Assembly: GCA_964187785.1 (NCBI GenBank) | Contig: OZ076409.1 | Location: 67,706,001-67,770,000, forward strand | Length of the DNA: 64,000 nt | From: Amphiscolops sp. MND2022 | Taxonomy: Eukaryota | Direction: 5' to 3' | In this document: one piece after another, positions 8,290-57,802 of the stretch | How the letters are laid out: each line of letters begins with the position of its first letter | How positions within the stretch are numbered: position 1 is the first letter of the stretch | Notes under the pieces: generated by a model | Told to the model about the DNA's origin: nothing | The model's database searches: none | What the model saw: only the letters and a program-made list of their open reading frames with translations | Program-made: the position numbers and the translations under genes

Positions 8290-9853
8290 ACAAATTGGAG
8301 AAAATGCAAACATTTCTTTCATGTTTTCACTTGCTCAGAAAAACCAGAACGAAAACGATTTAGGCGTCACTTTACTTTTTGGCTAAAACGTAGCCTACAG
8401 AAGCGTTAAACTATTTACGCAACCATGGACTCCGTATTTGGTCTCGGTCCCGAGATATGAGAGCCTAAATATGAGAGAACTAAGAAAAACTTGGGAGCAA
8501 ACTTCAGGTATTTTTGGCAGAAAAACGAAGGCGTTCAACATGATAACGGAAACTTTGTTGGATTGTTGATGCAAAAAGTAGCCTACATCCTTGATTTACT
8601 TCGTGAGGAAGAATTGTTTCCATATCTGTTTTCAGTTCGAGAAAGATTAGATACACACAGGCATTTGAAATTGGCCCTTTGTTTGCCCAAGAACAATTGC
8701 ACTCTGGGTTTGGTTTCAGCTAATATATAGGGAAGGAAAGTGAAAAAACTCAAAACTTTCGTTTTTCAAAACTTCTTCGCAAAAAACGATGAAGTGGATT
8801 TCTCGAATTTTACGGCGAAAATGTAGGCTAGGATCTTGCGCAACTTTTTGTGTAAACGTGGCATCCATGTCTATTCTAGGTTTTGAGAAGATGACCTCAC
8901 AATTTTCAAAATTAGTCACATGTCACGAAGTCTGCGAGAAAATCTCGACCATATTAGCATCTCGCAAAACTCGAAGCCCGGAAAACAAAGGGGCTCAAAA
9001 TGTCGCGCTTAACTTCGAGCATAAACGTTCAATGGTCTGCAAAAAGTGCTACAATTTGTGTATTTCCCTGGGCCCAAAACAATTTGACCTATCTAGTTTC
9101 AGATCAAAAATTTCTGATGAGAGAACTTAAAAAATCAAGAAATTGGGAAAAAAACAAAAAAAGTGGCAGTAACACGAAAACGTCAAGCTTAATCACGGGT
9201 ACTTTGATAGCAAAAAAATCAGAAGCAATCATTGCTGTAGTTTGTGATAGAGAATGGTGTCTGCGTCTATTTTGAGTTCTGAGAAAAATCAAATTTTTTC
9301 TACTATTTTGCTTGGAAAAACCAGAACGACAAAGATTGTGACGTCACTTTACTTTTTGGCTAAAACGAAGCCTACAGAACCGTTGTACATTTTAGGCAAC
9401 CTTGGACTCCGCATTCGGTCTCGGTCCTGGGTTATACGAGATTAAGTATAAAAGAACTAAGAAAAAAGTGGGGAAGACATTTTGACAGAAAAACGAAGGC
9501 GTTGAACTGGATGACGGAAACTTGGTTTCTATGTTGATGAAAACACTAGCCTACATCCTTGCTTTACTACGTGAGGAACAATTCTGCCACAGTGTCTATA
9601 TCTATTTTCAGTTTTAAGAAATATGAGCTAGAAATGGGGAAAAATCAGGCATTTTTTTCTTTCTTTTTTGCCCAAAAAAGTTAAGAACGAACTTAAAATA
9701 AACATTAAAAATTCAGGAACAAATTACGAAACCATGGGATCTGGGTATTGTCTCGGTTCAGAGATATAGGGGATCAAAATGGAAAAAATGAAAATGAAGT
9801 AGAAATTTTTTGAAAACTTTTCAAGCGAAATGTTGCCTAGGATCTCGCCCAAC
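8290..9853. repeat. Diverged tandem repeat, unit about 1 kb, interrupted by the Gypsy insertion and resuming at 25646-25900
   Basis: ttggctaaaacg.agcctacagaa..ggactccg.att.ggtctcggtcc at about 8380 and 9357; ctaggatct.gc.caactttttg at about 8828 is reconstituted by joining 9837-9853 to 25651 onward. Confidence 0.75.
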
Positions 9854-11436
9854 TGTCGCAGGCACCCGCCTGCGATGGCAACTTCAATACAATCGACGCA
9901 AGCAGATAAAGCGCCCTACCCGGCACATTGCCATTACAAAAAAACTTTCGATTCAATAACGAGAATTTTGGAACTCTTAGTTATGGTATTTATACTGTTT
10001 GTTATACCAGTAAATATAGTGGTTATTTTGTGTGTTTACTATTTGACAGCAAGCTATACTGACAGACAGAAAGGAAACGAGTTCAAATGCCTGCCTGTTC
10101 ATGCCAAATGTAGCTAACATAACCGCGTACGGCATATTGACCAATCACAGCCGTGTTAGCTTCACTCACAGTTGCTATACGTTATTTATATTTACTCGGA
10201 AAGGACCAGTCCGGCCACTTGGTTAGGCCTGTCCAAGTCATATTGTTGCTGTACTATATTGTTGATTGAATAATAAAGTAAGGACGGACTCGGCTTACGA
10301 ATTAATTAGTCCTATCAAATGGATTAGTGACGCTTTTATATGGTTTGAAATAAGGCCCAATACAGCTATTCGCCAAGATGATCGCTCTTTAACTTTGATC
10401 ATGATATGAAATGATGCTACATATATACACTAATGAATGAAATACAAATAAGGCTTTCTCCCAATGAATGGATATAATTGGGAGGCAAGTGCTGTAATAT
10501 TACCTGAGTGTGATATATTTGAAATATCCCTCATGGCGTTTGGCCATGTAGGTCCCACATGTATTGAATAAGCATGTAATGTTATTCATATTTGCAATTC
10601 GTGAATATATATGAAGCCATTCAAACAACGCGTCCCGCCACGACCTAATTGAGTGCTTTGATCTTGCCGCCCTCACTGGTGCTTAGTGACGTGACAATAC
10701 TATTTATTGCCATGATGCAACTATTTTTAGCCCCCGAGCAATTTATAGCATCATGACCATCGAATTTATGGGTGTCACGTTAACTTATGCAAATTGTACG
10801 AGATTCACTGTTAAACCCAGTTTATATTTTCCACAGAAACAATTCAAACAGTTTTTCATGGAGAAACATTTTCAATGCCTTCCACAAGGAAACAAAAAGC
10901 AAAAGCCAGGAAATTGAGGGAGTTAGATATGTTGTCCGACTGTGGCAACATGGACGTGATGCTAGGTGAAGGAAATTCAAACTCTATAGAAAAAGAATTA
11001 GAAAGCTTAATTATTGTCCCTGAAAGGCAGCAAGACTTTCAGTCATTCCCAAACAGAGAAAATTCATCTCAAGAGAATGAGATCAGGGACATCGATAGAA
11101 GAAATGAGCTTGTCAGAGAGAGTAGACTAATAGAGTCAATCAATATGTTATCTGGAGAGGTGAATGCCAGGATGCCACGTGAAATGGAAACTATGATGGA
11201 TTTGATGCACTCACAAATTAGCAGGGTCATTAGCTCTGCCATAAGCGAGAGAATCATTCCAGAGATACAAAACATGGTGGAAAATTTGCCTTTGAGTCAA
11301 CATGCAGTTGAGCCGTGCACGTCCGCAAATGAGGATGGAATTAGGAATGTATGGAAGAACGCTAATACAAGACTAACAAAAAAGGACTCAAGGTCTGCTT
11401 GTGATCTGAGAGACCACACGGACAATGTTCCTTACA
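9854..11436 (+). repeat. 5' LTR (1583 bp)
   Basis: Direct repeat of 23997-25645; starts TG, ends CA; followed by TGG PBS. Confidence 0.95.
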
Positions 11437-11450
11437 TGGTGACAGGAGCT
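11437..11450 (+). promoter_or_regulatory. Primer-binding site
   Basis: TGGTGACAGGAGCT directly after the LTR CA; resembles the complement of a tRNA-Leu 3' end (TGGTGTCAGGAG); tRNA identity is an inference. Confidence 0.75.
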
Positions 11451-12556
11451 AACGAACTCTAACAGCAGATTCATGGATTCCTCACAGGACGAATTCACTT
11501 TCAGCCAGACCTTCAGAGACAAGAATCTCCGCATGATACAACTCTGGATACAACTCGAAAAGTGGCGGAGCCCGTTATAGACGAACAGCCACAAGATCCC
11601 ATCAACCGATTGGCAGATGTCTTGGTAAATCTCCAGAACAAACCACAATCAATGACAATTCGACCAGTCACGACAAACCCTATGACATTTGATGGGAAAA
11701 CGGAGAAATTCGAACTGTTTGAAGATCTATTTCATACGATGATCAAGATGCAGCCCGCCATGACTGAACAAATGAAAATAAATCATTTTCAATAACTACT
11801 CAGAAAAGGGGCTCTACAAACATTTCGTAATATAAACTCCATAAACCGTCAAACACTGGAAGACGTATTGGTCATCTTTCGCAGAAAATATGTCAAACCC
11901 GAGTCTCAAGCCACAGCCAAACATAAGTGGCACTGACTTATTTTTGATCCCAACACGATGAAACTCCCCGATTTTCTCGAGGAACTCAACCAAGGTGCCG
12001 GGAAGCATTTGGAGAGAATGCTAAAAGCATGATCGACAGCCTGTTATTTGTCAAACTACCGCCCAAACTCAAGCGATCGGTAAATATGACCGGGCTAGAA
12101 AATGGGACATATGAGGAGACCGTTGCACATCTTGAAAGAGAACTTGATTTAAACGCCTTAGAAGAATCTGACGATTTACCCATTGCCACAATGGCTTCAT
12201 CGTCAGGTAAGACGCGAAACTTACTATCCAATGGCATTGATACTGACAAGAAAAACATACTGCAAAGCTGAAGACCATTTCTGGAAAAATTGCCCAAAAC
12301 TGAAAAAGAGAAAAGAAATGGAGGCCAAAAATGGCAAGAAGCCTCAACACCCAACTTATCCAGAACGTCCCACCTGCAGCAAAACTAATCACCCAGCAGA
12401 GAACTGTAGGCGCGGTGCCGGTGCCCATTTTCGTCCCAAACGAAATAGACAGGACTCCAAAGATACAGAGCCCTCTGAAGACGCAGACGCCCGCACCAAA
12501 AACGAAAAATCTACAACATCTACATCAAGCCAGTCCAATTCAAAGACGCCTGATTC

Positions 12557-12563
12557 AAAAAAC
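12557..12563 (+). promoter_or_regulatory. Candidate -1 ribosomal frameshift heptamer A AAA AAC
   Basis: Immediately precedes the gag TAA, in the correct phase; the following ORF (12569 onward) is in the -1 frame. Confidence 0.7.
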
Positions 12564-15500
12564 TAATTTTGCCACGACTCCAAATATGTGACCGAATGTC
12601 GATACGACAATTTGTCATATCTGACACCTCCAACGTAACGTACAAACAATATTACAGTGACATCAATGGAACACCATCAGTTGTCTGGCAGCAACAGATG
12701 CAAAAAGCTTATATTAAAACGTACAAAATGGTCCACAACAACCGCCCAGACCGATACTACGACATGGACTATACTACAGCTTTTGAAACCATTCAGACCA
12801 CTTCAACAAATCGAAGGTTATGACCCTCACTACATTGATCCTGAATATGGAGTAGATCCATACTGGGACAATTCCTTCTATGACCAACGAAGATGGCAAG
12901 TCAAATGTGACGATTATCCACTAACAGATGATGAGAATGACCCCGAAATTCCAGATAACAATCTATCAAGGGCGCTCATCGAATTGTGGCAGCCTAATTC
13001 TGAAATCACCAATGATCAGGAGATAGAAGAACTAATTACTGAAAATGGACTCCAATCCGAATCAGGTCTAATAGACGAATCAGCCTTCTTACATGACCTA
13101 ATAACTAAAGAAGGAGAACCAGCGTATATACCTTTATCCACAAACCTTGGACTCAAATAAAAAAACGGATGCTATATTTCCTGATGGACTTTGGGGAACA
13201 AACAATAGACGGCCTCATAGACACTGGAGCTCTATCTAGTGCAATTCCAGAAGCGGACCTCATGAGAATACGCCTATTGGCGCCCCAATCCATAGTCAAG
13301 GAGGGACCGGCTCCAACATTTCAAATTATGGTCGCAAATGGACAATTGGAAACCCCAAAGAGCACTGTTGAACTCAAGTTCGATGTCAGAGACATTGAAT
13401 TCCATGAAATATTTATAGTAATGGAAAAACTGATTGGCCCTATCATAGGACTAATTTTCCTCCAAAGGAATCATACAGTCCTGGACATGCGACAAGGCAT
13501 ACTTAATTTCTCATACTTCTCCATGAAACTCAAACGGCTGACCATAAATACTCTAACGTCCTGGAACCTATTCTCAATCCAGACGATGTCACACTACCAC
13601 CCAATGACCGTACTCTAGTAGAGATCAAGTCACAAATCTACAATGAAAACACGGTCACAGGGGTGTTACAACCCAGTGATCTCCTCCACGAGGAAAGTGA
13701 TATCACATTTTGCGCCGCGATAGTCACGTTGACCAATGGAACCGTCAACATCCATATCAAAAACATCACAGATCAGCCTTACAAATTTAAGAAAGGTCTA
13801 CACATAGCAAACTTTTCAGTATTAACACCGGAACAAATGAAGCACGTTAAACCAATCGACCCGGTGTCCGCTTGGCCACTCCTCAATGAAAATGAGGAGG
13901 ATGCGATCTACTACGTCAGTAGTCTACTCAAGGCCAACTGAAACAATAATCAATACGAGCAATACTGGTTCCCAACACCAGAAAACCCAGGCGACGAAGA
14001 TTCCCACACACCCATACAACGACAAATTCTACAAGAATTACGAAATCATCAAGAAGCTGAACGATTGAACCCCCAAAATGATGAAGAATCACGCCGTAAA
14101 TTTCTTAGCAATTTCGATTGGAAAGACTACATGCTGCAACAACATGAAATTAAAAAGATCGAATCGCCCCTAGTCGAATACCACGATATATTTGCAAGAC
14201 ACAAATTTGATATCGGGATGAACGAAGAACTCTCGGTCAAACTGACCCCTAAAGACAGTTCGCCTGCTTATTGCCAGTCAATTTAAAGGAGGACATACTT
14301 GTCGAGGTGGCCCTCTTACCAAAATATGGCATTATAACCACACTGCCATTTTCCAAAAATGCCAACCCCATATTCGCACAGAAAAAAAACCGAATGGGAA
14401 GCTAAGACTATTAGTCGATCTGAGGAAAATTAATAACCTCATCTCGGATGATTACATAAATAACAACCACCCAGTTAGCACCCTAACGGACGCTGCGCAA
14501 CTTATGGCAGGAAAGAAACAATTCTGTAAACTTGACTGTTCACAGGCATATCACTGCCTTCCAATGGCGGACCAAAGGTCCATTGAGATGCTTGCGTTCA
14601 AATTTGCAAGCCGTACCTTTGCCTACAGAAGACTCGCCCAGGGCCTCAGCAGAGCATTATCGGCATTTTCCACCTTTATGCAAGAATACCTTGATAAAGT
14701 TATCAAAGCTGACCAATGTGCCCAATACGTGGACGACATAGGCATAGCTGCTAACGATGCCAATCACCTTATAACAAACCTGAAAGCGACATTCGAATGC
14801 ATCAGGAAAGCGGGACTCAAGCTAACAATGCATAAATGCCACTCCGGGGCGACGGAAATTGAATTTCTAGGGAGAACAATTACTCCTGAGGGCGTCAAAC
14901 CACAAAAGGAGAGAATAACAAATTTCCTAGAACAAACCAAATTCCCAAAATCCAAAAAAGCACCGTGTAGTGACTACAGCGATACCTTGCATTCCTGAAT
15001 TATTACAGGAACCACATCCGAAGCTATCTGAAAAACTAGCCCTTTTCTTCCAACTCCTCAAAAAGAACGAAAAGTTCCTAGTGACTACGGAGCTAGTACA
15101 ACAATTTAACGAAATCAATCGAAAACTTGACAAATGTAGCCAATTGGCCCTTAAACAACAACTACCGAACAAGCAACTAGTCCTCATGACTGATGCTAGC
15201 TTCACAGCGGCTGGCTATGCCATACTCACCGAGAACAACCCAAATCAAAAATTATCATCTGTCAAAAAATCATACGCTCCAATTGCATATGGTTCAAAGA
15301 CCTTTACGTCATCGCAACTCAAAATGTCAATATACGCCAAGGAATTCTTAGCGACTTACTATGCATTCAAAGAATTTGGACATATTTTTTGGGGAGCGCC
15401 CAAACCGATCACTATCCTTACCGACAACAAATCGGTCACGAGATTCTTTCAGACGAAAATAATTCCTTCGACGCTCTGGAACGCATGTGACTATGTAATA

Positions 15501-17823
15501 CAATTCAACTTTGTCATAGCACATAATCCAGGGAAAAACAATACAGCAGCCGACTACTTATCCCGCATGAAAATGGACTCCAAAGAGAAACTAGTCCTAA
15601 AAATCCGCGAAGATATAGAGACTAAACCCATTGAGGTAAACGTCCAATCGGCAGGCGTGGCAGAAGAGGAACAGGTTTCCTTCACGGAACACGATGATGA
15701 GACAGCAGCCCAAATTTGGGAACGTAAGAAACAAAGCCGTAATAACCTGATCGACCAGGAAGTCGTAATTCAAATTGACGCAATATCCGAAAACATAGTA
15801 GATGAAATCACAAACTTTACCCAAAAATTGCGCAGAACGAATCAAATTTTGCTCGAACAATCCAAAGACCCTATACTGAGCCAACTCAAAGCCAAAATTC
15901 AGAACGAAGATTATTCTGAAGAAATACTCCAGCAAGATATTCGATACAAACGAACAAACCTTAACAATTTGGACCGAATAGTCCTCAAAGACGGAATAGC
16001 CACACAACAGTACTATGATGAAACTGGTTAAGTCAAATATCACCAAATACTCCTACCAAAGCATCGGCTAAAAGAGCTTTTTACGCATTGCATGGAACCA
16101 ACCGCGCACAAGCATCCTGGCATATCTAACATGTTACAGGAAATTCGCCAGAATTATTACTACCCCGGAGTAGCAAAACATGTCAAAAAATGGGTAGAGG
16201 GATGCGAAACTTGTGCGAAAGACAAACGTGTCCCAAACAACTCAATAACGCCTGAATTGCTAAACTTGCCCGAATGGGACCTCGGACCAGAGGATGCAAG
16301 AGGATGCAATGCAAATTGACTTATTACCAAATCTACCGATAAGTGGAGGCTACCAAACCGTGATGACGGCGATAGATGTTTTCTGTAGATATCTGTTTGC
16401 CTACCCGTTAGTGGAAGCTACCGCTTCGAACACGGCAAAAGTCTTGATCGACATCATGACAAAACACACATATCTGCCAACTACACTCATCGCTGACAAA
16501 GGAACTGCTTTCACGTCAAAAATCTTTGCAGAAATAGAAGAAATCCTCGGAATTACACCGAAATGCGCAAATACTAAACACCCGCAAACGATTGGCAAAC
16601 TTGAAAGGACTCATGCCTCACTCAAAATAAATTTAAAATGGCCTCAGGGGAATATCGCCGACAGCGGCATAAATACTTACCACTGGCTGTACTCAACTAC
16701 AATACTACTTACCACTCTAGTATTGGTTGTGAGCCAAGTAAGGTTTTCCATGGACGGATTCTGTATAACGTCCTAGATAATAAACTTGGAAATAATCCAA
16801 ACAACGATTTCTTGCCTACGACGGAATTCGCGGAAGAATTACAACAGAGAACGCAAATTCTCATTGACAAACCGAAGCATAAAATTATGCAGTCATACCT
16901 GAAATACAAAGAGTATTGCGACAGAAAAGCCAAAGCAGCTCCTCTCAGTGAACAAGATATTTGTTTTATTTTGCAGCCTAAAGCAGATACTCAAGGATCA
17001 AAAAAAACGTTCAGGGAATACCGCTGGATTTCGAATTGAAAAAACTGGTCCTTATCGAATTGAAATAGTATTACCTATTGAAAATTACATTGTTCGTCGG
17101 TTAAAAACGAACAAAACGCAGATATTATACCGAATCCGTCTAAAAAAAATTGTTCCAAATACACCCTTAGAGGACAAATATTCCAAAGAGAAATTGCAAC
17201 CTGATGATGAAATAATCATTCCGCAAGATGATTTATATACCATCGCATGGGAGGCAGACTTTGATTACCAAGTCTCCGAGCCGAGACGGGACGAAAACAC
17301 GAATGAAGAATCACAAATACCAGACAGCGATGCTAGTGATACCACTAGTGATTACGTCATTTATGGCAACGCTGATGACGTCCCGATAAAGCCGGGAACT
17401 GCAACTAGCCGAGACGGCATAGTCACGCGAAACGCAAATGACGTCACCGAAACGAATGAACGAACCAATATGAATGAAAATGAAGCGAGACCACATACGG
17501 CCAATAGCCGAGACGCGCCTATATTGCATGACGACGATGATGTAGACGACAACACTGCAAAGAATACGCAAAGCAGCGAAATCAAAAGACCGAATACGGC
17601 CACTGGCCAACAAGACCAAAATTCTGGCGACACGCCTACCGAATTGCACAATGAAACTGATGAAAGTAAAAATATTCTCCAAAAAAAGGGAGAAAAATCC
17701 CGTGCCCGGAATAGCGAATGATGCAATGAAAGAAAAAATAGAGGAAAACTCTAGCCCTAGAGGAGGGAAAACAACCTTCGACCTAACCCTAACCCCAACT
17801 ATACTGACGAAAACAGATACTAG
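12563..17823 (+). pseudogene. pol: pol: aspartic protease, dUTPase-like fold, RT, RNase H, integrase; multiply disrupted
   Basis: LIDTGALSS (PR), KLDCSQAYH and YVDDIGI (RT), MTDAS/KEFLA/TDNK (RH), H..HPG..CETC, QIDLL, ADKGTAF, KLERTH (IN); many stops and frameshifts; C-terminus NLRPNPNPNYTDENRY*. Confidence 0.93.
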
Positions 17824-18007: not shown

Positions 18008-21000
18008 TTAGTCTTTAGCTGAGCCCTCTCGTAGCTCTTGTACTGTTTTCGATAGTTCATCGGCAGGGAGATCGCCGAAATAAGCAAGCTTCTGTGCTTG
18101 GCCTGCAGCCCAATTAGTTTTCCGATTGGCAGTAGTAGATACAGAGGATGAGCGTGACGCAGAACTGACACCAACAACAGGAACACTTTTCAAGCTTTTA
18201 AAAGAACTGGTAAGATTCTTCAAGAATTCAGCACGGCCAAACATGTCAGCATGGACCCAAGGATCCCCAGCGAACTGCCTGGAACTGAACTGTCCCTCTA
18301 ACTCACGATACTGGGCCAAGGCGGACTCTGTTGTACATGTGGCAATAGCATCTGGGCAATTAGACAACTTTGACTGTGCGGGCAAACTCACTGCAGAAAG
18401 TCGACAACTGGAGCTAGAAGTATCGTCATCATGGAACTTGATGGCAGGAAGTTCTTGATGGGCCTCAGTGATGCAGAGACAGCACAACCGGAAGAGATGA
18501 AAAAGTCTTGAACGGCTACGGAATGAAGGCATGGGAATAAGGAAGTCTAGCCTATCAGCAATTGTGTTGGGAGCATTCTTGACTGTACCACAGGTGTTCC
18601 TGAAACTATCGATGAACTCAAAGTACTCTTCCCGGTAGTCAGTTTTGGCAGTTATGTCCACCCAACCACGATGGTGAAAGCTATCATACAAAGCGTTGAA
18701 GCAAAAGAGGTAGCCTGTTCTAAAGGCAAAGAGAGCAACACATGTGGGTCGATGCAACCCATTCCATGTATAATGTCAGCAGTAAAATGTATGTCTTCCA
18801 ACAAGGCCTCCAACAGGGAGACAATGTAGGCGCGTGCTTCTGTTCCAAATTTTTCCCTCTCCTTAGTGACTAACTCTTCTAGGCTAAGAGTAGTGGCCTT
18901 GTCAGCAGGGAAACGCTTCACTTTAGCCTGGCAAGCAGCATCGAGGTCAACAGTCAGTTTAAGTTGGCTCAAGAAATCGCGGCAAGATATCTGTCTCAGG
19001 TCGTCAGAGCACAACTGGAGTAATTTCGTCCACTCAACGTCTCCGGGGTTGTACTTGGGCAAAATAGCTCGGTGGCATTATTTCCTGACGAAACGGCAAT
19101 ATTGTCCGTAAACAAAGAGTGCTGAGTCTCGTGGTTTAGACAGGCTTCGCTCAAAGCATTTCGTATCTAAACAAACGAAGTCAAGAATGGGACGTGACAT
19201 GCGACAACCTAGTAAAGTCTCCTACTTTCTCAATGACTAATAATAGTTACGATCAAGTTCCATTATCGAAGGAAAAGCGACAACTAGGGCATAGCTTTGA
19301 AACGAAAGAAAATGACTAACAATCACGGACTAAAAGAGACAGAAGTTCCAATTTGGCAGTGAACAGATTGTCCTGGATGATTACTCACTCCAGGCTCTGC
19401 GGCTACAAGGAAGAGATTGTATGAGGAGAACTGGGGTGACGAAAAAAACTATCTTATTTGAGAGATGACTTTAAATAAAACTAAATGGACCAACAGGATA
19501 TTTATACCTTATTCCTGACCCCTTGCATCTTGAGTTGGTGCCAATTTCGTCAGATAGTCATGGATGCTCGTCCAGTTCTTTATGAATTCCGCACAAATTG
19601 CAGGAACCTTCTTCAGATCAATGTCGCAAGCTGCTGAAGCCTACAAATGAATAGTCCTTGTAGTCACGTTATATACTAGAAAGCCCGGGGACTTATGGGC
19701 TATAATGTGAGTAAGAAAAATGATATTTAGAAAAAAGACGACCTAATAGAAATCCAACTTGGACTAACCTTGCATAACTCAGGACATTGTGGGGCCCATG
19801 GCTGACTTGGACTACCGCGGGGGAAGACGACTAAGTATTTCAGCAGAGAGAACATGTCAGTGCAACCAAAGACATGACTGGTCTGAAGGGAGTTCGGGTG
19901 CATGAGGTCAGGCATGGAAAACGCTTCAAACCGAAAAGGATACTGGATTCAGTATTCATACAGCTTGGAGGTCTCAAGGGCTTGGAACACCATAGAAGAA
20001 CAGCCAGAAATGGTGACTAAGTTCGGTTTGGAGGAAACGAAGGACAACAGACAAGAAATGGCGGACAAGTAACAATCGGGGTATGCATCAGACTGCTGAT
20101 GTCTGTGAAGTTCTACACGGACGAGTGAGCCCCCTCTCCAAAAGCGGATTGACATACAGCGGTAAGTGTCGACTGTGGTGAACTCAATGGAGTACATGCC
20201 AGTAGCGATGACATGGCTAGAGATGTCAGCAAGTCCCCGAATGAAAAAATGGTGGATGACGTTCTGAAATGAAACCGAATAGTTGAAGAAGTTTAGCGGT
20301 GACCGACAAAACGGGCCTGTTTTCAATTATGTGCTACAATGCTACTTACGGTCAAACTAGCAGATCCCCAGTCGAAAGAGGAGAATAGGGCTTGATGATT
20401 GGTGAACACACCGATTCTTGTCCATAAACTCTGCAAGGGCAAGAGGTTGCCATCTTTTGGCACGAACGTTCCAATCAAGGAAATTAAAGTGCTCGTCCGC
20501 AAGTCACTGGGGTTTGTAATTCCCCCTATGCTGGCCATGTAATCCTCGTAGAATGGATAACGATCTGCGTCGATGAGTGGGGTGTCCCTGACGAAGAAGG
20601 GTTTCTCCCTTTCCAGCTCGAAAGGCGTAAGGACGTTACCGTCCTTCTCCCTAACTTGGTGTGTGACGACTCCAGTGATGCTGTCTGTCTCTTGCAGATG
20701 GACACAGCGCAATTTTTGGTCCTTTCGCAGATGCCCTTCTTTCTTGTAATGGCGTAGAATCTCCCTTGCCCCTTTCGAATAAATGGACACGTTAGTTTCG
20801 CTTAGCATGCAGTAGAACTTGATTTTGTTATGGATTGGGTGTACTGGTCCAGTTACAAAAGTCCGGGTCCATTGGATGCCCTTGAAGTATGCATCCTTCA
20901 TAACTTTCCCTGGCTTGCACAATAACTTTCTTCTTTTTCGCGGAGGACTTGGTTGCGCTGTCTCTGCCTCTCTAGAACGGCCTAGGGTAGACAGTGGTTG

Positions 21001-22067
21001 GTAGTCAGTGCTGCTATATTCACTGCCTGATGTAGAAGTGGCATTATTAGCACGGGACGTGCTGGGCCGAATTCCCAAACTTACTGCTGGCGTGAGCGGT
21101 AAAGGGTCCGTTTCACTAACCACATCAGTACAAGAGATTGATCCAAGTTGATAGGGTCCTCATCAGAATATATGGCCCCGCTCGTATAGCCGTCACTCAC
21201 GTTCCCTGCTTGACTGTCTTCTTCTCCCGAACATTTAGTGAGATGGCGGGCGGGCGTAGGACACGCCTGGGCATTTTCCTTTTTTTTGTCCTGGGAGGTC
21301 CCCGTTAAGGCTTGCAACAGGAGAGATTTCATCATATGATATGAGGAAAGAGCACTTTCATCGGCGACTGTTCTGAGGATGGCTTGCATCTGTTCCTGGT
21401 TGAATGCGACGGTAGGGTGCCCAACTGGTAATCGGATGGGTGTAGCGGCGGTATAAAACTTAAAAATAATGGTCCGTTCTTTGGCCGACAACTGCCTCTC
21501 GTAGGTTTCAAGCTTAGCTCGATAGGCTTCTTGCTCCTCATGGCTGTGGCCAGACTCAAGGTGTAATTCCCACTCAATGTCCGGGAAATTTTCAGGATCC
21601 AAAGTAACAATATGGGAAATGGGAGAAAAAGCCACGACTCCGGAACTGTCCAATAGTTCCTCAGCATCAGTCGTGTCACCATAGAGTGGTGCAGCCTCTT
21701 CCTGGGAGGTGGTCTCTTCCTTGTCATCGAGTCCAGCTGGGCCAATTGATTGACTAGGTGTAATGGTGATGGCTTCTGAGACTGATGCCTTCTGAAAAAT
21801 AAAGGTCATAGTGGACGAATGGGCTATTGCTCCTTCACGAACAGGTAGGACGACAGTAGATTCTGGCTCGGGCAAATTCATTGCTGTGACTGTCCTTTCA
21901 ATAAAAGCAGTGACGCTCTCATCTGTGGATCGGCTACCATTAGAAGCCTGCGAGGTTGGACGAGGAGGGTCTGCAATGTTTGTAGGCTCGACATGCTCAG
22001 TGTTATCTTTATTGGGATTATCGATTGAGGGAATAGTGGATTCTGACAAATCCTTCTTAGACGACAT
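18008..22067 (-). pseudogene. Antisense spliced accessory gene inside the Gypsy element; zinc-finger plus hAT-transposase-like layout
   Basis: Long minus-strand ORFs (21081-22232, 20323-21123, 19949-20326, 19727-19915, 18652-19062, 18008-18757) linked by frameshifts and GT-AG introns (20349-20264, 19768-19641, more sites in 19168-19507); FYCMLSETNVSIYSKGAREILRHYKKEGH finger-like motif. Family assignment is by eye. Confidence 0.65.
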
Positions 22068-23263
22068 TCCTAAACAGAAGGAAAGAAATGTTTGCGGCAA
22101 CTTCCTGAAAATGTGTCCATGAAAACGGCAGTAAAGTCTTCCGGAAGTGAAAAAATGAAAGCAATATTGAAATCGTTTAGTGGAAGGGACAAGAAGTACG
22201 TGAACGAGAGGAAGAGCCTTGATCAAGCTCATTTCCGTTCAAAGGTAAAAGACCAGATACCTTACTTATGATATTTGTCCAATTGGAGATTGAGCGAGAA
22301 TGGAAGATCGTTCCAGCTGGAATGGCAGTTTTTGATGATTCCAAAGAGATCAGAGCACAATGGTAGAGTGTCCGAACAGCTCCGGATCAGGAAAAGGCAG
22401 AGAAGGACGAATACTAAATTTAAGTCCAATCCAAGGGAAGAACCGGTGCTGGCCCAATGGGGAGACAGTAAACTAAGTCGGAAATGACAGAAGAAATTAA
22501 AAGTTCGCTGATGAACTGAGAATAAAGAAATCAAACTAAAAGACTGACTGTAATACTAAATAAACAATGGATAAATACGGAAGCGATTATTGTAACGAAC
22601 TGACATTTTGAAGAATTGAGAAGTGACTGCTGAAGCAAAAGTAGGAGTTCGTGGCAAACTGGATTTGATGTCAAACATTTATACAATTATGGATATTTTT
22701 TTGTGGATGGAATCTGCCAGAGAAATCCACAGAGGTATCTTCGAAAACCTTATTTTATCATGAATTTATTATTTTACAATTATTTTAATTTCTTAAAATC
22801 CCTTATTTGGAATATTAATATTTCGTCCGCCAATGTGGAATGCGGACAGCGTTGGCGATTCTGATTGGCTATCGCGGCGATGAGCCGCGCGTAGCCTTAA
22901 GTCTTGGATATTACCTCTTAAAAGTCTCAAGTGGGTGACGAGTGTTGATAAACACCTGAAGATGTCAATGATGCCTCCTTGCAGCATTAGGCAAATGACT
23001 GAAGTGATGGTGTAAACAAAGCAGGTTATTGGAATCGTCAAAGAATGTTTAGGAGAATTTATCAATGAAACGATCGCCGGGACAGATGAAACCCCGGGAA
23101 AGAATCACGGGGTTTGAAAATATTTCAGACGAACTCAAAAAAGAAAAGTTATCATTCTTTTTCCTAAAACGTTCAAGAACAGTCGACTAACAAAGCTTGA
23201 AAATTCCAAAACCTATTTCAATTTCTTATAAAAATTGCTAAGAAATTCATAAAAGCTAAAGTC

Positions 23264-24085
23264 ATGGCGGCCCTATATCCAGAAGACTTCCAAGGCGCAG
23301 CACCCCTGGGTCACGACATCACTGTTATATCTAGTGACGAAGATGAACCAGTGGACAACTTGAGTCTAACATCAGTGTTTGACTTGCAATTTTCGTCGGA
23401 AGATGAAGCAGAGGACAAGGAAATCAACCTTATGGCCAGATGTGTTGAGATGGAGATGTCAGCGCCCATCCCCATCCCAGGACCGTCTTCGTGATGAAGA
23501 CCAATGAAGAAGTTGTCCCTGTTGGGCTACCCAAACACGAAATACGGACGAGGCCAATTACTAGGAAAAGGAAATGGGCCTATCTCCAGGGACGACAGAC
23601 TCACAAATGGACACCCAATTACCCTAAGCAGAAATTTGGTCCCAATTGTAGATACAATCATGTCCCCTCCGCCGCAAGATAGGCAACCAGCCCAACAATT
23701 TTGCTCAACAATGTATTGTGACGCCCATGGCTATCAACGCCAAAGGCCTCAGCAAAATTTGGATTCGATCACAAAACGTTTTCAAGGAATGGAACTAGCT
23801 GGGACTAACTCCCTATCTGGTTATTCGGACTGTGTGATATGTGGTAAATCTGTTTAACAGATAAAAGACGAAGCAGTCATCGACTATATGCACAAAGCAG
23901 CGATCCCTAATGAGTCTCCACAACAATTCAACGCAAGACGAAGGGCCTTCTTAAAAGGAATGGAAATTGGAGCTTTTCTTTTGCTCCCAGGGGGAGTGTC
24001 GCAGGCTGCCGCTTGCGATGTCAACTTCTATACAATCGACGCAAGCAGACAAAGCGCCCTACTCGGCACAATGCCATTACAATAA
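23264..24085 (+). pseudogene. Sense accessory ORF of the Gypsy element overlapping PPT and U3
   Basis: ATG in gtcATGG context; acidic N-terminus (ISSDEDE, SSEDEAEDKE), CVIC motif; fragments 23264-23494, 23504-23857, 23888-24085, the last two in frame across one TAA; stop lies 89 nt inside the 3' LTR. Confidence 0.6.
23989..23996 (+). promoter_or_regulatory. Polypurine tract
   Basis: AGGGGGAG immediately before the TG of the 3' LTR. Confidence 0.8.
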
Positions 24086-25645
24086 AACTTTCGATTCATT
24101 AACGATAGTTTTGGAACTCTCAGTTATGGTATTTATACTGTTTGTTATACATGTAAATATAGTGGTTATTTTGTGTGTTTAATATTTGACAGCAAGCTAT
24201 ACTGACAGACAGAAAGGAAACGAGTTCAAATACCTGCCTGTTCAGTATAGCTAACATAGCCGCGTACGGCATATTGACCAATCACAGCCGTGCTAGCTTC
24301 ACTTACAGTTGCTATACGTTATTTATATTTACTCGGAAAGGACCGGTCCGGCCACTTGGTTAAGCCGGTCCAAGTCATCTTGTTGCTGTACTATATTGTT
24401 GATTGAATAAATAAAGTAAGGACTGACTCGGCTTACGAGTTAATTAGTCCTATCAAATGGATTAGTGACGCTTTTATATGGTTTGAAATAAGGCCCAATA
24501 CGGCTATTCGCCAAGATGATTGCTACTTAACTTTGATCATGATATGAAATGATGCTATATATATACACTAATGAATGAAATACATATAAGGCTTTCTCCC
24601 AATGAATAGATATAATTGGGAGGCAAGTGCTGTAATATTACCTGAGTGTGAAATATTTGAAATATCCCTCATGGCGTTTGGCCATGTAGGTCCCACATGT
24701 ATTGAATATGCATGTAATGTTATTTATACATGAAATTCGTGAACATATTTGAAGCCATTCAAACAACGCTTCCCGCCATGACCTAATTGAGTGCTTTGAT
24801 CTTGCCGCCTTCACTGGTGCTTAGTGACGTGACAATACTATTTATTGCCATGATGCAACTATTTTTAGCCCCCGAGCAGTTTATAGCATCATGACCATCG
24901 AATTTATGGGTGTCACGTTAACTTAAGTATAAATATGCCCAAGTTGGCCCTGACACACAATATCTTAGTGATACGGTTATTGTTCAGTTACTCTTATGCA
25001 AATTGTACAAGATTCACTGTTAAACCCAGTTTATATTTTCCACAGGAACAATTCAAACATTTTTTCATGGAGAAACCTTTTCAATGCCTTCCACAAGGAA
25101 ACAAAAAGCAAAAGCCAGGAAATTGAGGGAGTTAGATATGTTGTCCAACTGTGGCAACATGGACGTGATGCTAGGTGAAGGAAATTCAAACTCTATAGAA
25201 AAAGAATTAGAAAGCTTAATTAATGTCCCTGAAAGGCAGCAAGACTTTCAGTCATTCCCAAACAGAGAAAATTCATCTCAAGAGAATGAGATCAGGGACA
25301 TCGATAGAAGAAATGAGCTTGTCAGAGAGAGTAGACTAATAGAGTCAATCAATATGTTATCTGGAGAGATGAATGCCAGGATGCCACGTGAAATGGAAAC
25401 TATGAAGGACTTGATGCACTCACAAATTAGCAGGGTCATTAGCTCTGCCATAAGCGAGAGAATCTTTCCAGAGATACAAAACATGGTGGAAAATTTGCCT
25501 TTGAGTCAACATGGAGTTGAGCCGTGCACGTCCGCAAATGAGGATGGAATTAGGAATGTATGGAAGAACGCTAATACAAGATTGACAAAGAAGGACTCAA
25601 GGTCTGCTTGTGATCGGAGAGACGACACGGACAATGTTCCTTACA
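23997..25645 (+). repeat. 3' LTR (1649 bp), with TATAAATA at 24928 and a second copy of the Gag N-terminal ORF from 25084
   Basis: Direct repeat of 9854-11436; ends CCTTACA followed by TSD CCAAC. Confidence 0.95.
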
Positions 25646-27311
25646 CCAACTTTTTGCGAAAACATGGTATCCGTATCTATTGTGGGTTTTGAGAAATTTG
25701 CCTCACAAATTTGAAACGTGGGCACATGTCACCAAATCTGCCAAAAAACTCGAATATATTTGTATTTCGCAAAGCTCGCAGCCCCAAAAACTCGACCATG
25801 TGGTTATCTCACAAAGCTCGACGCCTCAAAAAACACATGTTTTAGTAGGAAAATGATTTGATAGTTTGTAATTTCAACAAGATGCTGGCAAGTGTTGCAA
25901 ATTGCTGTGAAATGAAACAAAATGCTAAATGTTTCTCAAGAAGCGTCCCAATATTGCGCCGTTCAACGTGAAGAGTTTTGGACAAAGATGTTGCTGTTAG
26001 CGTATCATTCAAAAACAAAATCTAGTTGTGAACGGTAGATCATATTTCCTTAGGCTACAGTTGTTCTAGATAACTTTTAACAACACAGTTACTTAGACAC
26101 ACCTTTTCGGATGTGAATATAAAAATTAAATGGGCGCTTCTTCAAAATAAAAATGAAGACAATTACAGTAACTAGTCTCGTTTTTCGTTTTCAGGCTCGG
26201 TAATTGCAATTCTCCCTAAACTATAAATAAGCTTCGGTGTGCAATTTGACTAACGGTGATTACTTAAACTGAGTACTTGGGAAACTATAGTGCGAAGACG
26301 TCATCGAGACTGTTAGGAGAAGAAAATGTTCCGTGCAATAATAAAAATGTACTGTAAAATTGGGCCGTACATTCATAAAAGCAGCATAGAAAAGTTTTCA
26401 GCAGCTTCAACAAGAGCGAATTGAAACAATTTTTTCAGGTTGCAAACAAAACAAGACGCCACTAAGCACCGGGATATTTTCTGCTAAAAATGTAACACAT
26501 CAGCACGGGTTCGAACCCACGACTTCGTATCTGCCAGGCAACTGCGCCATGATGACTAGAAATTACTAAATGGAGTAATAAAGTGGAGATTTGGCAGAAT
26601 TGGTAAAAAAAAACGCAACACAAATTATGATTTTCCTTCCCCCATTATATGTGGGCGGAAAATAACAATGTTTTACAATCACTTTGCTATTAGCAGAGAA
26701 CAAAACAAAGTTTAGCTTGGATACGATAGCTTGGTTGGTACCGTAAATTGCCATCTAATTCCTGCTTTTGATTATCTTCATTCACTTTTGCTAGCAGCTC
26801 CCTCAAAATTCATAGCAAGATCTTGCACGATCAATCCTATTAATGGTGTTCTTGGTATGGTTATCTTCCTTATTGGGTTTCATGAAAGAGACCACCCTAG
26901 TTAAATCTGCAGGAACTTTTTACAGGCTACAGGCCTGCATGCAGGGTAATTTTATAAAACCTAGAAAATTCTGTGAACTTCGGGTGGTGGATAAGGATAA
27001 CTGGGTTATCTTGGAAAAATCTTAGCTAAGATCGTGACAAGATATTGCCAAGAATTGCAAGATGCCATGGTAAGACCCGGGTTGTTATAAACTTCATGTT
27101 GATCTGAGAATGAACCAATCAAACGCAAATACTAAATTCCTGATTATATAAAAGTATTTATAAAAACAACTATTGATTTATTGTTACAACTATAGCACAT
27201 CCAAATTGAAAATAAGACATGGTTGAATCTTTCATCAACTGGAAATTTCCAACTCTTCCACAGTCATTGAACTCTTACATCCGGTGACAGCATAGTGATT
27301 TGATTGGTTGA

Positions 27312-41500: not shown

Positions 41501-44500
41501 CATGGTTACCCATGATTCAGCAAGATTAACCATGATCTTAGAAAGCGTAGCGTGTCTTCGATCGCTGGGTTTCGATCCCAGATCATCAATGACAACATGG
41601 TTATTTTCCAAGGAATTATTCTCAGAATATGGAACACATTGACCGATGATGAGTCATGGATGGAAAGCCATTACTTTCAGTGAATGAATGTGAAGATTCA
41701 GTCGTAAAATATTTAGCAATGAAATTTATCAAGGCAAACAACAGTTGTCGAGACCTCGATGCAAAATTAGAGAAATATTATGTTGCAAGTATTTATAGAT
41801 TTTTAGCTTTTTATGTAATTTTTAAAAGGTTGACTGAACATTAGATTTTCAAAAATCGGAACTTTTTCCTTTTCCCCCCACACTTTTCAAGATGATGTTT
41901 TTGCATTTAATTATATCTCAATTGCGTTTCCAATGAAACAGTTCAGCTTTAAATTTATTCTTAGTGTGACAGTTTAGGATTCAGATACAAACTTTGTTCA
42001 CACTTTTTTCCTATGTAGTCACTCATTTTTGATGAAGAAATCAACAGCTTCCTGTTTTGAGTCATCAATAAACACTCAATACGAGCATAATTAGTCAAAT
42101 TGTGTGAACAATGTTTTGTTCAAGCGCAAAACTACTCTAGTAGTGTGGAGACAACAAAACAAAGGAAAAGACTTATTCGAAGAAATATTGAATGATATAG
42201 TCAAATATAATCCTTCATGTTGAGTTTGTTTTCTTTAAAAAGTGTGGGGGGAAAAGGAAAAAGAGCCCAAAAATCCAGTAAAGTTATTCTGAACACTTGC
42301 TTGGAGTAGACTTGCTTACCTGACGGTGACAGCAACCGAATTATCAATCCTGGTAGAAACAAAACAATGGCTACCACATCAATGATGTTCCACCGGTCGT
42401 TGAAAAACACTCTAGTTTTCTTCTTCAATGTTGGCTCCAAAATTGTCATGAATTGTCTGAATTCCTCCACGGCCAAAGTGAAGAGCCACAGGAAGACGAC
42501 GTATTCTATACTGGTTGGTGTGTCCTTTAGACCTAACAGGACAATCTTAAATTTAGATACACACTTTGAAGATTTTCGAAGTTTTTGAGAGAACAATGAT
42601 TGCCATTCTACTGACTCGAGTCACTAGAATTACAATCATTGTTCTCTCAAAAATTTTGAGGAGACGAAATGAAAAAAAAATGAACACGACCGTGTGTTTG
42701 ATGTACCAATAATGATGAGCCAGACCTTTTGTCTTGTTTCCAAAATATAGTTCAATTTAATGAACCATTTTTCTTCCAAACTTCAAACTTTGGAACAATG
42801 GTCAATGAATTTGATTCGAATAAGTTCTTTCTTTGACCTACAACTTAACAGGCAAATACCCAGATATAAAATTGAAGGTCAACCAAATTTGAAACATACC
42901 TGCTAGAATTACGTAACTGAATAAAATGATCAAAGCCAGCTTCGAGGCGACATTGAGAATGAAAGTGACGATTGGAGCAGTGTAGAAAAACTTATAACGA
43001 TCAGCCAATGATATTTCTTCACTCAACACAACTTCCACTTGCGCCACTGAATCCACGCTTTCCTTTGGTACCAACGTTTTTTTGTCTACAGAGTTTGTTG
43101 ACCCCTCATTTGACACATAAGCGCTTGACTTCCTGTTAGTTGCATCTATTTGTTGTTTGGAAAGAATCGAACCGTTTCGATCAACATTCAAACTTTTCGA
43201 AATCTTTCTCAACTTTTCAAGCTCTCTATGAGTATCATGAGTGAACCATATTCCATAAACAAAAGCTGGGAAAAAAGTTGCGAGCAAAATTTTCCAAGTT
43301 GAGTTTCTGTCACTGATTTTACCCAGCCAAACTTCTTGAACTAAAGTTTGACATCCACTTTGTGCTATAAACATTTTGGAATCGGCTTGTTCTGCGAGAT
43401 CCAGACATGTTTTTTGACCCCAACAATCATGCTGGATTTTGAGCATGATGTGGGAAGTTTTGGGACTGAATGCATAACATGCGTTGAGCAATCCAATTGC
43501 TTTGCGTTCATAGTCTTTCTGCATTTTCTCTACCAAGTTTTTCAAATTTATGTCAACTTTGACAGCCGACGATTCCAACATTGCTTTTGTCAATAACATG
43601 GCAAAGAGAGCACCGGAAGTTTTGCATGGCATGTCTTCCCAGAAACATAGACTCAGTTGATGCCTCATGAATAACAACGAATAGACGAACAGTTCCCTTT
43701 CAGGGTCGCGACATCGCAGTGACTGGTCATCGTCGATGCTTTCATTAAATTCTTTTGGATTCCAAGTTTTAAAGAAGGCTGTTTTCTCAATATTGGAATA
43801 CTTGGGGACATAGTGTATATCAGCGGTCATCAACAAAGCTCTGTGAATTCTTTCCATTGTTTTCTCAGTTTCAGAGTACTTCCCTTTCAAAGTTTTCAAG
43901 ATTTCTGTCAAGTACTTGTCGTTGTACAATAACATGGTGTCATAATAAAGCGTTTGCACTTTTGACTTGGTCAGGAATATTTTCATTGGGACCATTTCTA
44001 CCAGAAGCTTGACAAATTCCACTTTGTTGTCAACTAAAGCTCGGGTGAGAAATTTCTCCAAATCTCCGTCATCTAGTCGATCGTCATTTTCTTTTCTCTG
44101 ATTTTTTGCCCAGTTATTCTGTGTATACTTTATTTATAATTTATAAGTGTTATTTCTAATTTTGAAAAAAAAGTTCAAATGGAATATGATTGGCCAAAAA
44201 AAGTTCGATTACTAACGCCAACTGGAAAAATGAAAATTTGTTTCATTTATCGTTCGATTGAAATTTTAGTTTTATAATTTAAAATCAAACGTTTGGGCAA
44301 AAATAGCTGCTCTTGGGTAGAGACCAATGATTACATTTTCTGTTTCAGTAGAATCAGGCTCATCCAAATCGTCTACATCCTTTTTGTTGATTTTGGCTAT
44401 CACCTGTACAGCCATATCATCTCTGTCCCATAGAAAAGATAAATGAAACTGCGTTCTCACATCCAAGTTTTGTGTGTCCAGAAGTGTTTGTAGAATAGCT

Positions 44501-46055
44501 TTATCCAGATCTCCGGTTATTTCACTTCGATCTTCATCCAGTTTAAAGATCCGGATACTGCTTTTGTAATTCAAACACTCAACAATCCATTTCACACTCT
44601 TATCAAGAAGTCTTCCCTTCAGTTTTAAAAGAGTTTCAGTCTTTGATCGGATATATTTTTCTAGCTTTTCCCTTTTAATTTGCTCACTTAAGTGGTCAGC
44701 ATGACTGAGTTTCTCAGAAATATAGACTGCGTATGCCAGAACATCAGCTGCTCGACCGGACCCCTCTATAACGACGCAAGGGGTTCCATTTATAAGAGCA
44801 TTTCGTACTGTGTCTATCGTCCCAGGACCCCCCTCGACCATAACACAAACGATAGGGACCCTGGTTCGTTTCTTTGCAACTCCATTCTCGCAAATTACTT
44901 TTTCAAACTTGCCCCGCAGGGCTATTTCTTTTCCGAAGCGGTTGTTTGATCCGTCGTCAACAAATAAAAAATGGGTATGGTTCGGGTCAAGTCCTGTGCT
45001 TTTCAGAGGTTTTTGGTACTGGGCTTCAAAAACAGGGGAAGAAGATGAGTCATGTGTTGGAGGTGGTATCAAAGCTTCTTTTCCCTTAATGGCACCCCAT
45101 GTTGCAATTCCAATTGCAACGACTTGGTGACTGAAAAATCCATTGGATAAAAAATTAAAGAACATTTTCTTAGGTATCTATATTTTGTCAATTACATAAT
45201 TCGGAAAGAGGGGTTATTGAAAATACTTAGAAAGCAAGGGAAATATATACTCCTAAATTAGTTTCTTGGTTTATTAACCCCAAAGATTTCTTCATGGATT
45301 TGCCAGTATTTTGAAACCCAGATATATCACTCTCGAAGTGGCACGTTTTATAAGCTTCAAATGATTTTCTCCAAGATGACATTGTTTTAGCCAAATAAAG
45401 AAATGATTTTGTCACTTCAACTTTACGATTAAACTAACTTGACACTGGAAGAAGGAGCCGACGTTGCAGTTAGTAACTGATCTCTCACAGCCTCCCCACA
45501 AATCTTCATAACACCTGCATTGGTACCCCCTGTAATTATCCAGGCACCTTTCGTTGCTGCAACTCTTTGCAATCCTCGTCGCAATCGATCGTGATCTTTC
45601 TTTTTCATAGCGAAATCGTTCGCACCTCCCGTGACCGAAATAATCAGCGAAGGTTTCGCCAACTTCCAGTGTTCATGAATGTATTCCACAAGTTGCGAAA
45701 CATTTACGTCATCATTAATGCGCATATAAGGTGAGTAACTGGCAATTGTATCTTGGTTTTCGAACACAATGTTCCCAAAACATCTCAGTTTAGTTTTTTT
45801 AGTGGATTTACTGGGGTCCCATGTTTTATTGAACGGTTGAATCACTATATTTTTGGAGTGATCTTCTAATTTCAGTCCACACTGACAATCTTTGGACTCG
45901 GCAAAATGTCGAGGACAGAACTCTTTGCAATGTTTCTGGTAAAATGGGGGATCTTTCGATTTAGAAGTGGTCGAAGTGAAAGCATTTCCAAGTTCCTTGT
46001 CACCACTTACGATACCTTCTCGTGGATGAATCTTGTTTTCTGGATGCTTCTTCAT
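38587..46055 (-). CDS. TRPM: TRPM-family cation channel, about 10 exons, no C-terminal enzyme domain seen
   Basis: MHR motifs PSLIISVTGGA, AWIITGGTNAGVMK, AIGIATWG, LDPNHTHFLFVDDG, VEGGPGT, EGSGRAAD; LGPKIVMISKMIKD, pore PFFEMLGE, S6 NVLLLNLLIAIFN, TRP box, coiled coil. Phase-compatible GT-AG exons: 46055-45439, 45130-44335, 44118-42900, 42532-42320, 40591-40433, 40124-39737, 39553-39404, 39281-about 39200; last two exons (about 39122-39086 and 38750-38587) less certain. Confidence 0.93.
40764..41570. repeat. Two inverted copies of a minisatellite-containing MITE-like repeat in TRPM intron 4
   Basis: CCCAGCGATCGAAGAC at 40764 and its reverse complement ending at 41570; internal (CCATGATCTTGCCAAG)-type units; related pieces near 27030-27080, 30663-30740 and 34010-34085. 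Confidence 0.65.
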
Positions 46056-57700: not shown

Positions 57701-57802
57701 CCCATATCGACACAACTCTCGTCCTAGATACAGATCACGCTCCTATTCCAGAGACAACAAATTCACAAAATATACAAATTCATACAGACCACCTTCAAGA
57801 CC
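54726..57802 (+). pseudogene. gag: gag with long N-terminal extension, capsid-like region, CCHC knuckle and RS-rich tail
   Basis: IKPFDGLDYNYTPEEYLQHIE..SLTGTALCWY (capsid-like), CSYCHRTNHSISAC, SRDRDR/RSPYR repeats; several stops and frameshifts. Confidence 0.8.

What the first reader, a model, noticed from the sequence alone, without database searches (positions are those of the whole stretch)
10875..11800. Gag begins about 560 bp inside the LTR and is translated through the PBS
Seen: ATG at 10875 (MPSTRKQKAKARK..) lies within the 5' LTR; about 187 codons are LTR-encoded, the frame crosses the CA/TGG boundary (..DNVPY-MVTGA..) and, past one TAA at 11460, continues in frame into the capsid region. 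The same ORF is open in the 3' LTR (25084 onward) and runs out into flanking DNA. Knowledge: in canonical Gypsy elements and retroviruses gag starts downstream of the PBS (Ty1 starts only slightly inside the LTR). Inference: U5, the integrase att site and the PBS are all protein-coding, and every 3' or solo LTR is a ready-made promoter + ATG + 187-aa basic/helical N-terminus able to fuse to host sequence.
Basis: partly seen in the sequence, partly recalled or inferred. Interest (0 to 1): 0.74.

Follow-up and report, generated by a model that had tools for sequence, protein, structure and literature searches.

The report
Gag's first third encoded inside LTR
In a large group of animal Gypsy-type jumping genes, the reading frame of the capsid protein starts 390-590 bases before the end of the terminal repeat and runs straight through the integration and primer signals, so the repeat itself likely encodes up to a third of the protein and isolated repeats carry that piece too.

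Summary
Confirmed and extended. The window holds a decayed 15.8-kb Ty3/Gypsy element (LTRs 9854-11436 and 23997-25645, 5-bp TSD). The gag ATG lies 562 bp before the LTR end. The stop at 11460 is decay of this copy: 57 of 533 fetched relatives are full-length Gags open from this start through the capsid. Proteins called from lone LTRs leave Gag exactly at the junction, and the next codon starts with the LTR's terminal A in 100 of 101 cases, and in 98 of 100 in a distant family with an unalignable N-terminus. DNA of that family (L002) shows the same layout: 129 LTR codons, same PBS. The LTR-coded part is a basic leader plus a conserved predicted 59-residue helix; the att/PBS junction falls in a low-confidence linker. 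Expression, transcription start and function are untested. The host-fusion claim has no support: run-out tails look like random flank. Precedents are in copia-type elements (Ty1 about 14 codons, Candida Tca5 about 100), and this scan noted gag starts in tiny microsporidian LTRs on other DNA. My searches found no paper on this depth in Gypsy elements. New variant of a known kind.

The parts
9849..9853 (.). left target-site duplication (5 bp)
   Evidence: same 5-mer at 25646-25650
9854..11436 (+). 5' LTR, 1583 bp, TG...CA
   Evidence: self-BLAST and alignment with the 3' LTR
10783..10784 (+). site where the 5' LTR lacks 71 bp present in the 3' LTR, including its TATA-like motif
10820..10836 (+). 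pyrimidine tract + CAG, splice-acceptor-like, 38 nt before the gag ATG (untested)
   Evidence: read from the sequence
10875..11436 (+). LTR-encoded N-terminal 187 codons of gag
10875..10994 (+). basic leader, codons 1-40 (7 K/R in the first 15 residues of close relatives; mean 61% identity across subfamilies)
11106..11282 (+). predicted long amphipathic helix, codons 78-136 (pLDDT 76-89 in intact relative P0005)
11437..11448 (+). primer-binding site directly abutting the LTR; same 12 nt in L002; read in frame with the LTR's last A as Met-Val-Thr-Gly
11460..11462 (+). premature stop specific to this copy (others at 11793 and 11934; frameshifts near 12000 and 12255)
   Evidence: relatives are open here
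11670..12566 (+). capsid (CA) and zinc-knuckle part of gag, broken in this copy
13109..17721 (+). pol fragments in the order protease, RT, RNase H, integrase
   Evidence: Pfam
18008..22238 (-). antisense ORF fragments inside the element; one has a homolog in L002
23989..23996 (+). polypurine tract
   Evidence: same junction in L002
23997..25645 (+). 3' LTR, 1649 bp
24928..24935 (+). single TATAAATA, 156 nt before the LTR's ATG (197 nt in L002); candidate promoter
25084..25692 (+). 3' LTR copy of the ORF: 187 LTR codons + 15 flank codons
25646..25650 (.). right target-site duplication

Best explanation
This is a decayed copy of a Gypsy-type LTR retrotransposon clade in which the gag frame starts inside the LTR and stays open through the LTR end and the primer site, and in which the LTR likely supplies a translated N-terminal Gag domain from a promoter predicted to lie about 150-200 bases upstream of the ATG. 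Shown: element anatomy; in-frame overlap in families whose LTR-coded part is 126-195 codons; protein-like conservation of a basic leader and a long helix. Inferred: transcription starts just after the late TATA-like site, so U3 is long and the coding stretch is a long U5 (R+U5 about 690 nt, copied from the translated 5' end of the RNA as strong-stop DNA); the ribosome reads through the att CA and the PBS; integrase and the tRNA primer fix the junction word (Y/H/D/N)-M-V-T-G, which is tolerated because it sits in a flexible linker before the capsid; the helix replaces a matrix domain and helps assemble or target particles, as proposed for Cer1 Gag.
For: 57 of 533 fetched proteins are Gags of 540 aa or more, open from the LTR start word through the capsid (examples). 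Of 252 proteins, 211 reach the junction: 110 continue into the internal region and 101 leave there. Of those 101, 100 continue with a residue from an A-starting codon (expected 43%; control at the next position 45 of 94). Distant family P0278: 100 of 120 listed leave at the junction, 98 of 100 with an A-codon residue, control 34 of 100. All 26 junction words, found in 25 of 146 representatives, follow Y/H/D/N, the residues of NAC/NAT codons (background 17%). L002 DNA: PPT, 1792-bp LTR, ATG 388 bp before its end, identical 12-nt PBS, open 541-aa gag. Conservation is blocky: 61% and 41% in codons 1-40 and 82-136, against 20% and 22% in the other two blocks. 93 of 206 mismatches in the helix are conservative, against 23-26% in a neutral null (lineages not independent). 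Between the two LTRs the coding part differs at 12 of 562 sites and the rest at 51 of 1015 (p 0.005). The model has low confidence over 148-241 around the junction, and its best PDB matches are the PNMA2 and dArc capsids.
Against: No RNA, ribosome or protein data. The relatives are unnamed gene calls, so they were found because they are open (ascertainment). No family-level dN/dS: DNA was available for only one informative relative, and the test within this copy is not significant. Two of four LTR-coded blocks show no excess of conservative change (33 of 167; 45 of 252). No canonical AATAAA lies between the TATA-like site and the ATG in the window's LTR, so U3/R/U5 borders are unresolved. The TATA argument rests on two LTRs and was made after the fact. 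L002 has one LTR, so its borders are inferred from the PPT, the PBS. Capsid fold matches are weak (E 0.004).
Confidence: 0.8

Rival explanations
1. Same protein, different RNA route: the promoter lies early in the LTR and the gag mRNA is cis- or trans-spliced onto the acceptor-like site 38 nt before the ATG, while unspliced RNA serves as the genome.
For: Pyrimidine tract + CAG at 10820-10836 in both LTRs. AATAAA occurs only at LTR positions 85, 410 and 414. Many upstream ATGs would need bypassing. [quoted passage not shown]
Against: One TATAAATA at a similar distance from the ATG in two LTRs that do not align (-156, -197; about 1% chance each within a 150-nt window). L002 has AATAAA at -61, fitting a late U3/R border.
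Confidence: 0.2
2. Gag really starts at the ATG formed by the LTR's last A and the PBS TG; the LTR frame is an untranslated or rarely translated extension.
For: Met at the junction in 104 of 110 read-through proteins. 9 of 146 representatives are called from that Met.
Against: That Met is forced by CA|TGG whatever the start. The upstream frame is open, begins with a basic Met-leader and is conserved in blocks across subfamilies at 27-46% identity. A short isoform from this Met alongside the long one is not excluded.
Confidence: 0.07
3. One reading: lone and 3' LTRs act as promoter-plus-N-terminus cassettes that make functional fusions with host sequence.
For: 7,542 short protein clusters match the LTR part of one family and 306 match this family's, so the raw material is abundant.
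Against: Tails after the junction have a median of 15 aa in this family (random expectation: mean about 15). Among 212 run-outs no tail is shared except one pair identical over 20 aa (4 of the 25 long 'tails' were misclassified Gags). The distant family's median of 40 aa is above expectation, probably because long-tailed ORFs become cluster representatives (inference). Spliced chimeras would not be visible in these data.
Confidence: 0.1

Closest known systems
Ty1 of Saccharomyces cerevisiae (Ty1/copia; PMC5454406, passages)
   Same: GAG starts inside the 5' LTR and the PBS lies within coding sequence: RNA starts near nt 241, 5' UTR is 53 nt, and PBS mutations at 335-347 were designed to preserve the GAG sequence.
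   Different: About 14 codons in the LTR against 126-195 here; copia domain order; no LTR-borne structured domain.
Tca5 of Candida albicans (Ty5-like; PMC4139406, passages)
   Same: The ORF begins 382 bp into a 685-bp LTR, about 100 codons before its end; the review calls this an unusually deep inset.
   Different: Copia type; low copy number with few solo LTRs; the in vivo start is stated to be unknown. Here it is a high-copy Gypsy clade with conservation evidence across families.
Cer1 of Caenorhabditis elegans (Ty3/Gypsy; PMC10309623 and PMC3315495, passages)
   Same: Animal Gypsy Gag with a long predicted helical N-terminal domain instead of matrix, then CA and CCHC fingers; PBS directly adjacent to the LTR; extra 3' ORF.
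   Different: Its 5' UTR extends beyond the 492-bp LTR (UTR variants at 957 and 1175), so the N-terminus is not LTR-coded; no sequence relationship was tested.
Microsporidian micro-LTR Gypsy elements
   Same: Gag start inside the LTR; LTR end plus PBS form an in-frame ATG.
   Different: LTRs of 38-120 bp with a few codons, against 1.6-1.8-kb LTRs carrying a whole domain.

Membership tests
Ty3/Gypsy LTR retrotransposons (Metaviridae) | Two direct LTRs with TG...CA ends and a 4-6 bp TSD | tested here: met
Ty3/Gypsy LTR retrotransposons (Metaviridae) | pol order protease-RT-RNase H-integrase | tested here: met
   PF13975, PF00078, PF17917/PF17919, PF00665 in that order
Ty3/Gypsy LTR retrotransposons (Metaviridae) | Gag with retroelement CA fold and CCHC knuckles | tested here: met
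   best Foldseek PDB hits PNMA2 and dArc capsids (E 0.004-0.03, weak); Atlas features 0.95 to Ty3_capsid / Retrotrans_gag / zf-CCHC clusters
Ty3/Gypsy LTR retrotransposons (Metaviridae) | PBS complementary to a host tRNA 3' end | not testable with these tools
   TGG-led 12-mer conserved in two families, but no tRNA in the window and no genome held
Ty3/Gypsy LTR retrotransposons (Metaviridae) | Polypurine tract before the 3' LTR | tested here: met
Ty3/Gypsy LTR retrotransposons (Metaviridae) | RT tree placement in a named Gypsy clade | not tested
   no reference RT set at hand; PDB hits (foamy virus, caulimovirus-type, Ty3) do not resolve a clade
BEL/Pao (Belpaoviridae) | Pao-type gag, peptidase and RNase H profiles | tested here: not met
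   only a marginal DUF1759 hit on Gag (above cut-off in 1 of 3 proteins); protease and RNase H hit Gypsy-type families and no Pao peptidase family was listed
Ty1/copia elements with gag starting in the LTR (Ty1, Tca5) | Integrase before RT | tested here: not met
   it works like them at the LTR/PBS junction but is not a member
Ty1/copia elements with gag starting in the LTR (Ty1, Tca5) | gag ATG inside the LTR with the PBS in coding sequence | tested here: met

The most novel reading that the evidence does not exclude
Because U5 is a coding exon for a basic, helical Gag assembly domain, the thousands of solo and 3' LTRs of this clade express capsid-less Gag N-termini that poison particle assembly of their own family (a copy-number control built into the LTR) or occasionally seed new host proteins. 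The LTR may be coding at both ends, since a 3' sense frame also crosses the PPT into U3 in the same register in two families.
Probability: 0.12. Interest if true: 0.78.

Novelty: new variant of a known kind. Interest (0 to 1): 0.5.

Why it matters
It shows that a Gypsy lineage can keep integrase ends, primer site and up to a third of Gag in the same bases, across families whose LTRs and N-termini no longer align. That is a ready system for measuring how overlapping cis and coding constraints shape LTR evolution. In practice, repeat libraries that split LTR from internal region would truncate these Gags, and solo LTRs produce thousands of apparent orphan genes in gene calls (7,542 clusters for one family). 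If solo LTRs are expressed, every recombination event would leave behind a potential Gag fragment gene.

Tried and rejected
No whole genome held, so no copy-level DNA survey or family dN/dS. Sequencing runs: none was listed. Related DNA: none in viral contigs or prokaryote genomes; 2 loci from metagenome contigs, only L002 informative. Homodimer prediction for residues 76-140: no verdict (score 0.02, alignment not used). Atlas search of the LTR part: best score 0.75, no lead. First structure model was poor (mean pLDDT 44). RNA fold around the junction is no more stable than shuffles (z -0.33). Heptad scan gave no clear canonical repeat (best register 56% hydrophobic). The bacterial promoter scan is not applicable. 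The window's 3' sense frame and that of L002 do not align significantly (best E 0.3). No names or accessions for relatives, so host range is unknown; an acoel host was my recalled guess and is untested (searches gave background only). Literature: phrase searches for a Gypsy gag starting inside the LTR returned 0 papers; one search listed 2 papers, not read; one search listed 19, of which 3 were read as passages (PMC3630058 and PMC3212995 uninformative; PMC4139406 gave Tca5). Supplements were not opened. Repbase/Dfam entries and subscription papers are outside the library and may describe this layout.

Full report
Observation. Self-comparison gives two LTRs, 9854-11436 and 23997-25645, starting TG, ending CA and flanked by the same 5-mer. 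A TGG-led PBS abuts the 5' LTR with no spacer, and a purine tract precedes the 3' LTR. ATG 10875 lies 562 bp before the LTR end. Its frame crosses the junction, meets TAA 11460 and continues into capsid sequence. The 3' LTR frame is open for the same 187 codons and ends 15 codons into the flank. Pol fragments follow in the order protease, RT, RNase H, integrase, so this is a Ty3/Gypsy-type element. The copy is dead: stops at 11460, 11793 and 11934 and two frameshifts in gag. A TRPM-like gene elsewhere in the window points to an animal host; the host was not identified.

Is the stop at 11460 a family trait? No. A search with the LTR-coded part among longer proteins gave 48 hits of 482 candidates, many of 562-575 aa, at 37-86% identity. 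In total 57 of the 533 proteins fetched are 540 aa or longer, begin with the LTR start word and are open through the capsid. All are unnamed gene calls from assemblies, so they were found because they are open.

Is the N-terminus in the LTR in relatives too? With no DNA for most, I used proteins called from lone or 3' LTRs. Among the 120 listed of 306 short hits, 83 lose similarity to Gag within -4 to +12 residues of the junction, 58 exactly at it. Over 252 proteins, 211 reach the junction; 110 continue into the internal region and 101 leave. The LTR ends with one spare A, so the next codon should start with A: 100 of 101 do (expected 43%), while the following position shows 45 of 94. Ten of the 101 belong to the subfamily at 46-48% identity.

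The layout is shared across a clade. A profile search found 2,853 representatives at E up to 0.001, of which 150 were listed. In 25 of the 146 new ones the PBS-coded word Met-Val-Thr-Gly occurs upstream of the capsid, and all 26 occurrences follow Tyr, His, Asp or Asn, as a ...ACA LTR end requires (background 17%). In near-complete Gags it lies 114-223 residues from the start. Four of these N-termini (P0268, P0278, P0313, P0358) do not align with the window's group at E 0.01, although their post-junction parts are 44-59% identical to P0005. For P0278's family, 7,542 short proteins match the N-terminal 126 residues; of the 120 listed, 100 leave at the junction, 98 with an A-codon residue, control 34 of 100. 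Locus L002 gives DNA for that family: purine tract, a 1792-bp LTR with the same first six bases, an ATG 388 bp before its end, the same 12-nt PBS and an open 541-aa gag. For families other than those of the window, P0029, P0254 (one run-out) and P0278, LTR location is inferred from the junction word alone.

Is the LTR part under protein selection? Identity to P0005 is 61% over codons 1-40 and 41% over 82-136, but 20% and 22% in the other two blocks. In the helix block 93 of 206 mismatches are conservative, against 23-26% in a neutral null on random codons. The leader gives 34 of 100, and the two variable blocks show no excess; lineages are not independent. A neutral 187-codon frame at such divergence would stay open about 0.1-0.3% of the time, subject to the ascertainment above. 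Between this copy's two LTRs the coding part differs at 12 of 562 sites and the rest at 51 of 1015 (p 0.005), but the split of 4 synonymous to 8 non-synonymous is not significant (p 0.19). A model of intact relative P0005 shows a confident helix at 78-136, low confidence over 148-241 around the junction, a CA domain at about 270-430 and two knuckles. Best PDB matches are the PNMA2 and dArc capsids, weakly; Atlas features agree. The LTR part has no look-alike.

How it most likely works. The window's 3' LTR and the L002 LTR do not align as DNA, yet each has a single TATAAATA, 156 and 197 nt before the ATG (about 1% chance each; noted after the fact). I infer a late promoter, a short 5' UTR and a coding U5. 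[quoted passage not shown] Integrase needs the terminal CA and the tRNA needs the PBS, which fixes the junction word; it is tolerated in a flexible linker. The basic leader and helix would stand in for a matrix domain, as proposed for the helical N-terminus of Cer1 Gag (PMC10309623, passages). The poly(A) site is unresolved in the window (no AATAAA between TATA and ATG; L002 has one at -61), and an acceptor-like site 38 nt before the ATG keeps a spliced route open. This copy's 5' LTR lacks the TATA-containing 71 bp.

The fusion claim. Tails past the junction have a median of 15 aa in this family, near the random expectation. Across 212 run-outs only one pair shares a tail. The distant family's median of 40 aa is higher, probably a clustering bias. 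Nothing here shows expression or domestication; spliced chimeras could not be seen.

Comparison and novelty. Ty1 GAG starts about 14 codons inside the LTR and its PBS is coding (PMC5454406, passages). Candida Tca5's ORF starts about 300 bp before the LTR end, with the true start unknown (PMC4139406, passages). Both are copia type. Cer1's UTR extends past its LTR. Earlier notes of this scan describe gag starts in tiny microsporidian LTRs (unchecked); sequence and place look-ups found nothing. Phrase searches for a Gypsy case returned nothing, but repeat databases and most subscription papers were not searchable. The principle is known; the depth (a whole domain), the Gypsy context and the persistence across families with unalignable LTRs appear new. 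Interest 0.5.

Noticed in passing
window 18008-22238 (-); L002 905-1759 (-): Antisense ORF fragments between integrase and the PPT; one matches an antisense ORF upstream of the L002 LTR (32% over 167 aa, E 4e-20) with a Cys/His motif that looks BED-finger-like (recalled, no Pfam hit). Probably a conserved antisense accessory gene of this clade.
   Followed up: partly
window 23264-24082 (+); L002 3294-4028 (+): A sense frame (273 codons with 3 stops in the window; 244 open codons in L002) crosses the PPT and ends 25-28 codons inside U3, in the same register in both families. The proteins do not align significantly. The LTR may be coding at its U3 end too.
   Followed up: partly
window 9854-10114 (+): The first 87 codons of the 5' LTR are open and include a hydrophobic, membrane-like stretch; the 3' LTR copy stops earlier. 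May be chance.
   Followed up: no
proteins P0258, P0266, P0361, P0253, P0506: Several Gags carry tandem in-frame repeats of the LTR-end/PBS word, suggesting repeated duplication of the junction without loss of frame.
   Followed up: no
L002 3942-5752: One LTR with a PPT on its left and a PBS on its right: a tandem pair of elements sharing an LTR, or a circle-derived junction.
   Followed up: partly
window 55382-64000 (+), repeat at 57803-60048: A second, unrelated Gypsy-type element whose protease region is repeated in tandem (about four 561-bp units, 97-99% identical, in frame within a 1191-aa ORF); real expansion or assembly artefact.
   Followed up: no
window 9854-10874 vs 10875-11436: The non-coding part of the LTR pair is more than twice as diverged as the coding part (5.0% vs 2.1%), which neutral decay after insertion does not predict; may reflect recombination or conversion between copies.
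   Followed up: partly
window 42838-46091 (-): TRPM-like channel gene pieces (SLOG and TRPM2-like domains).
   Followed up: no
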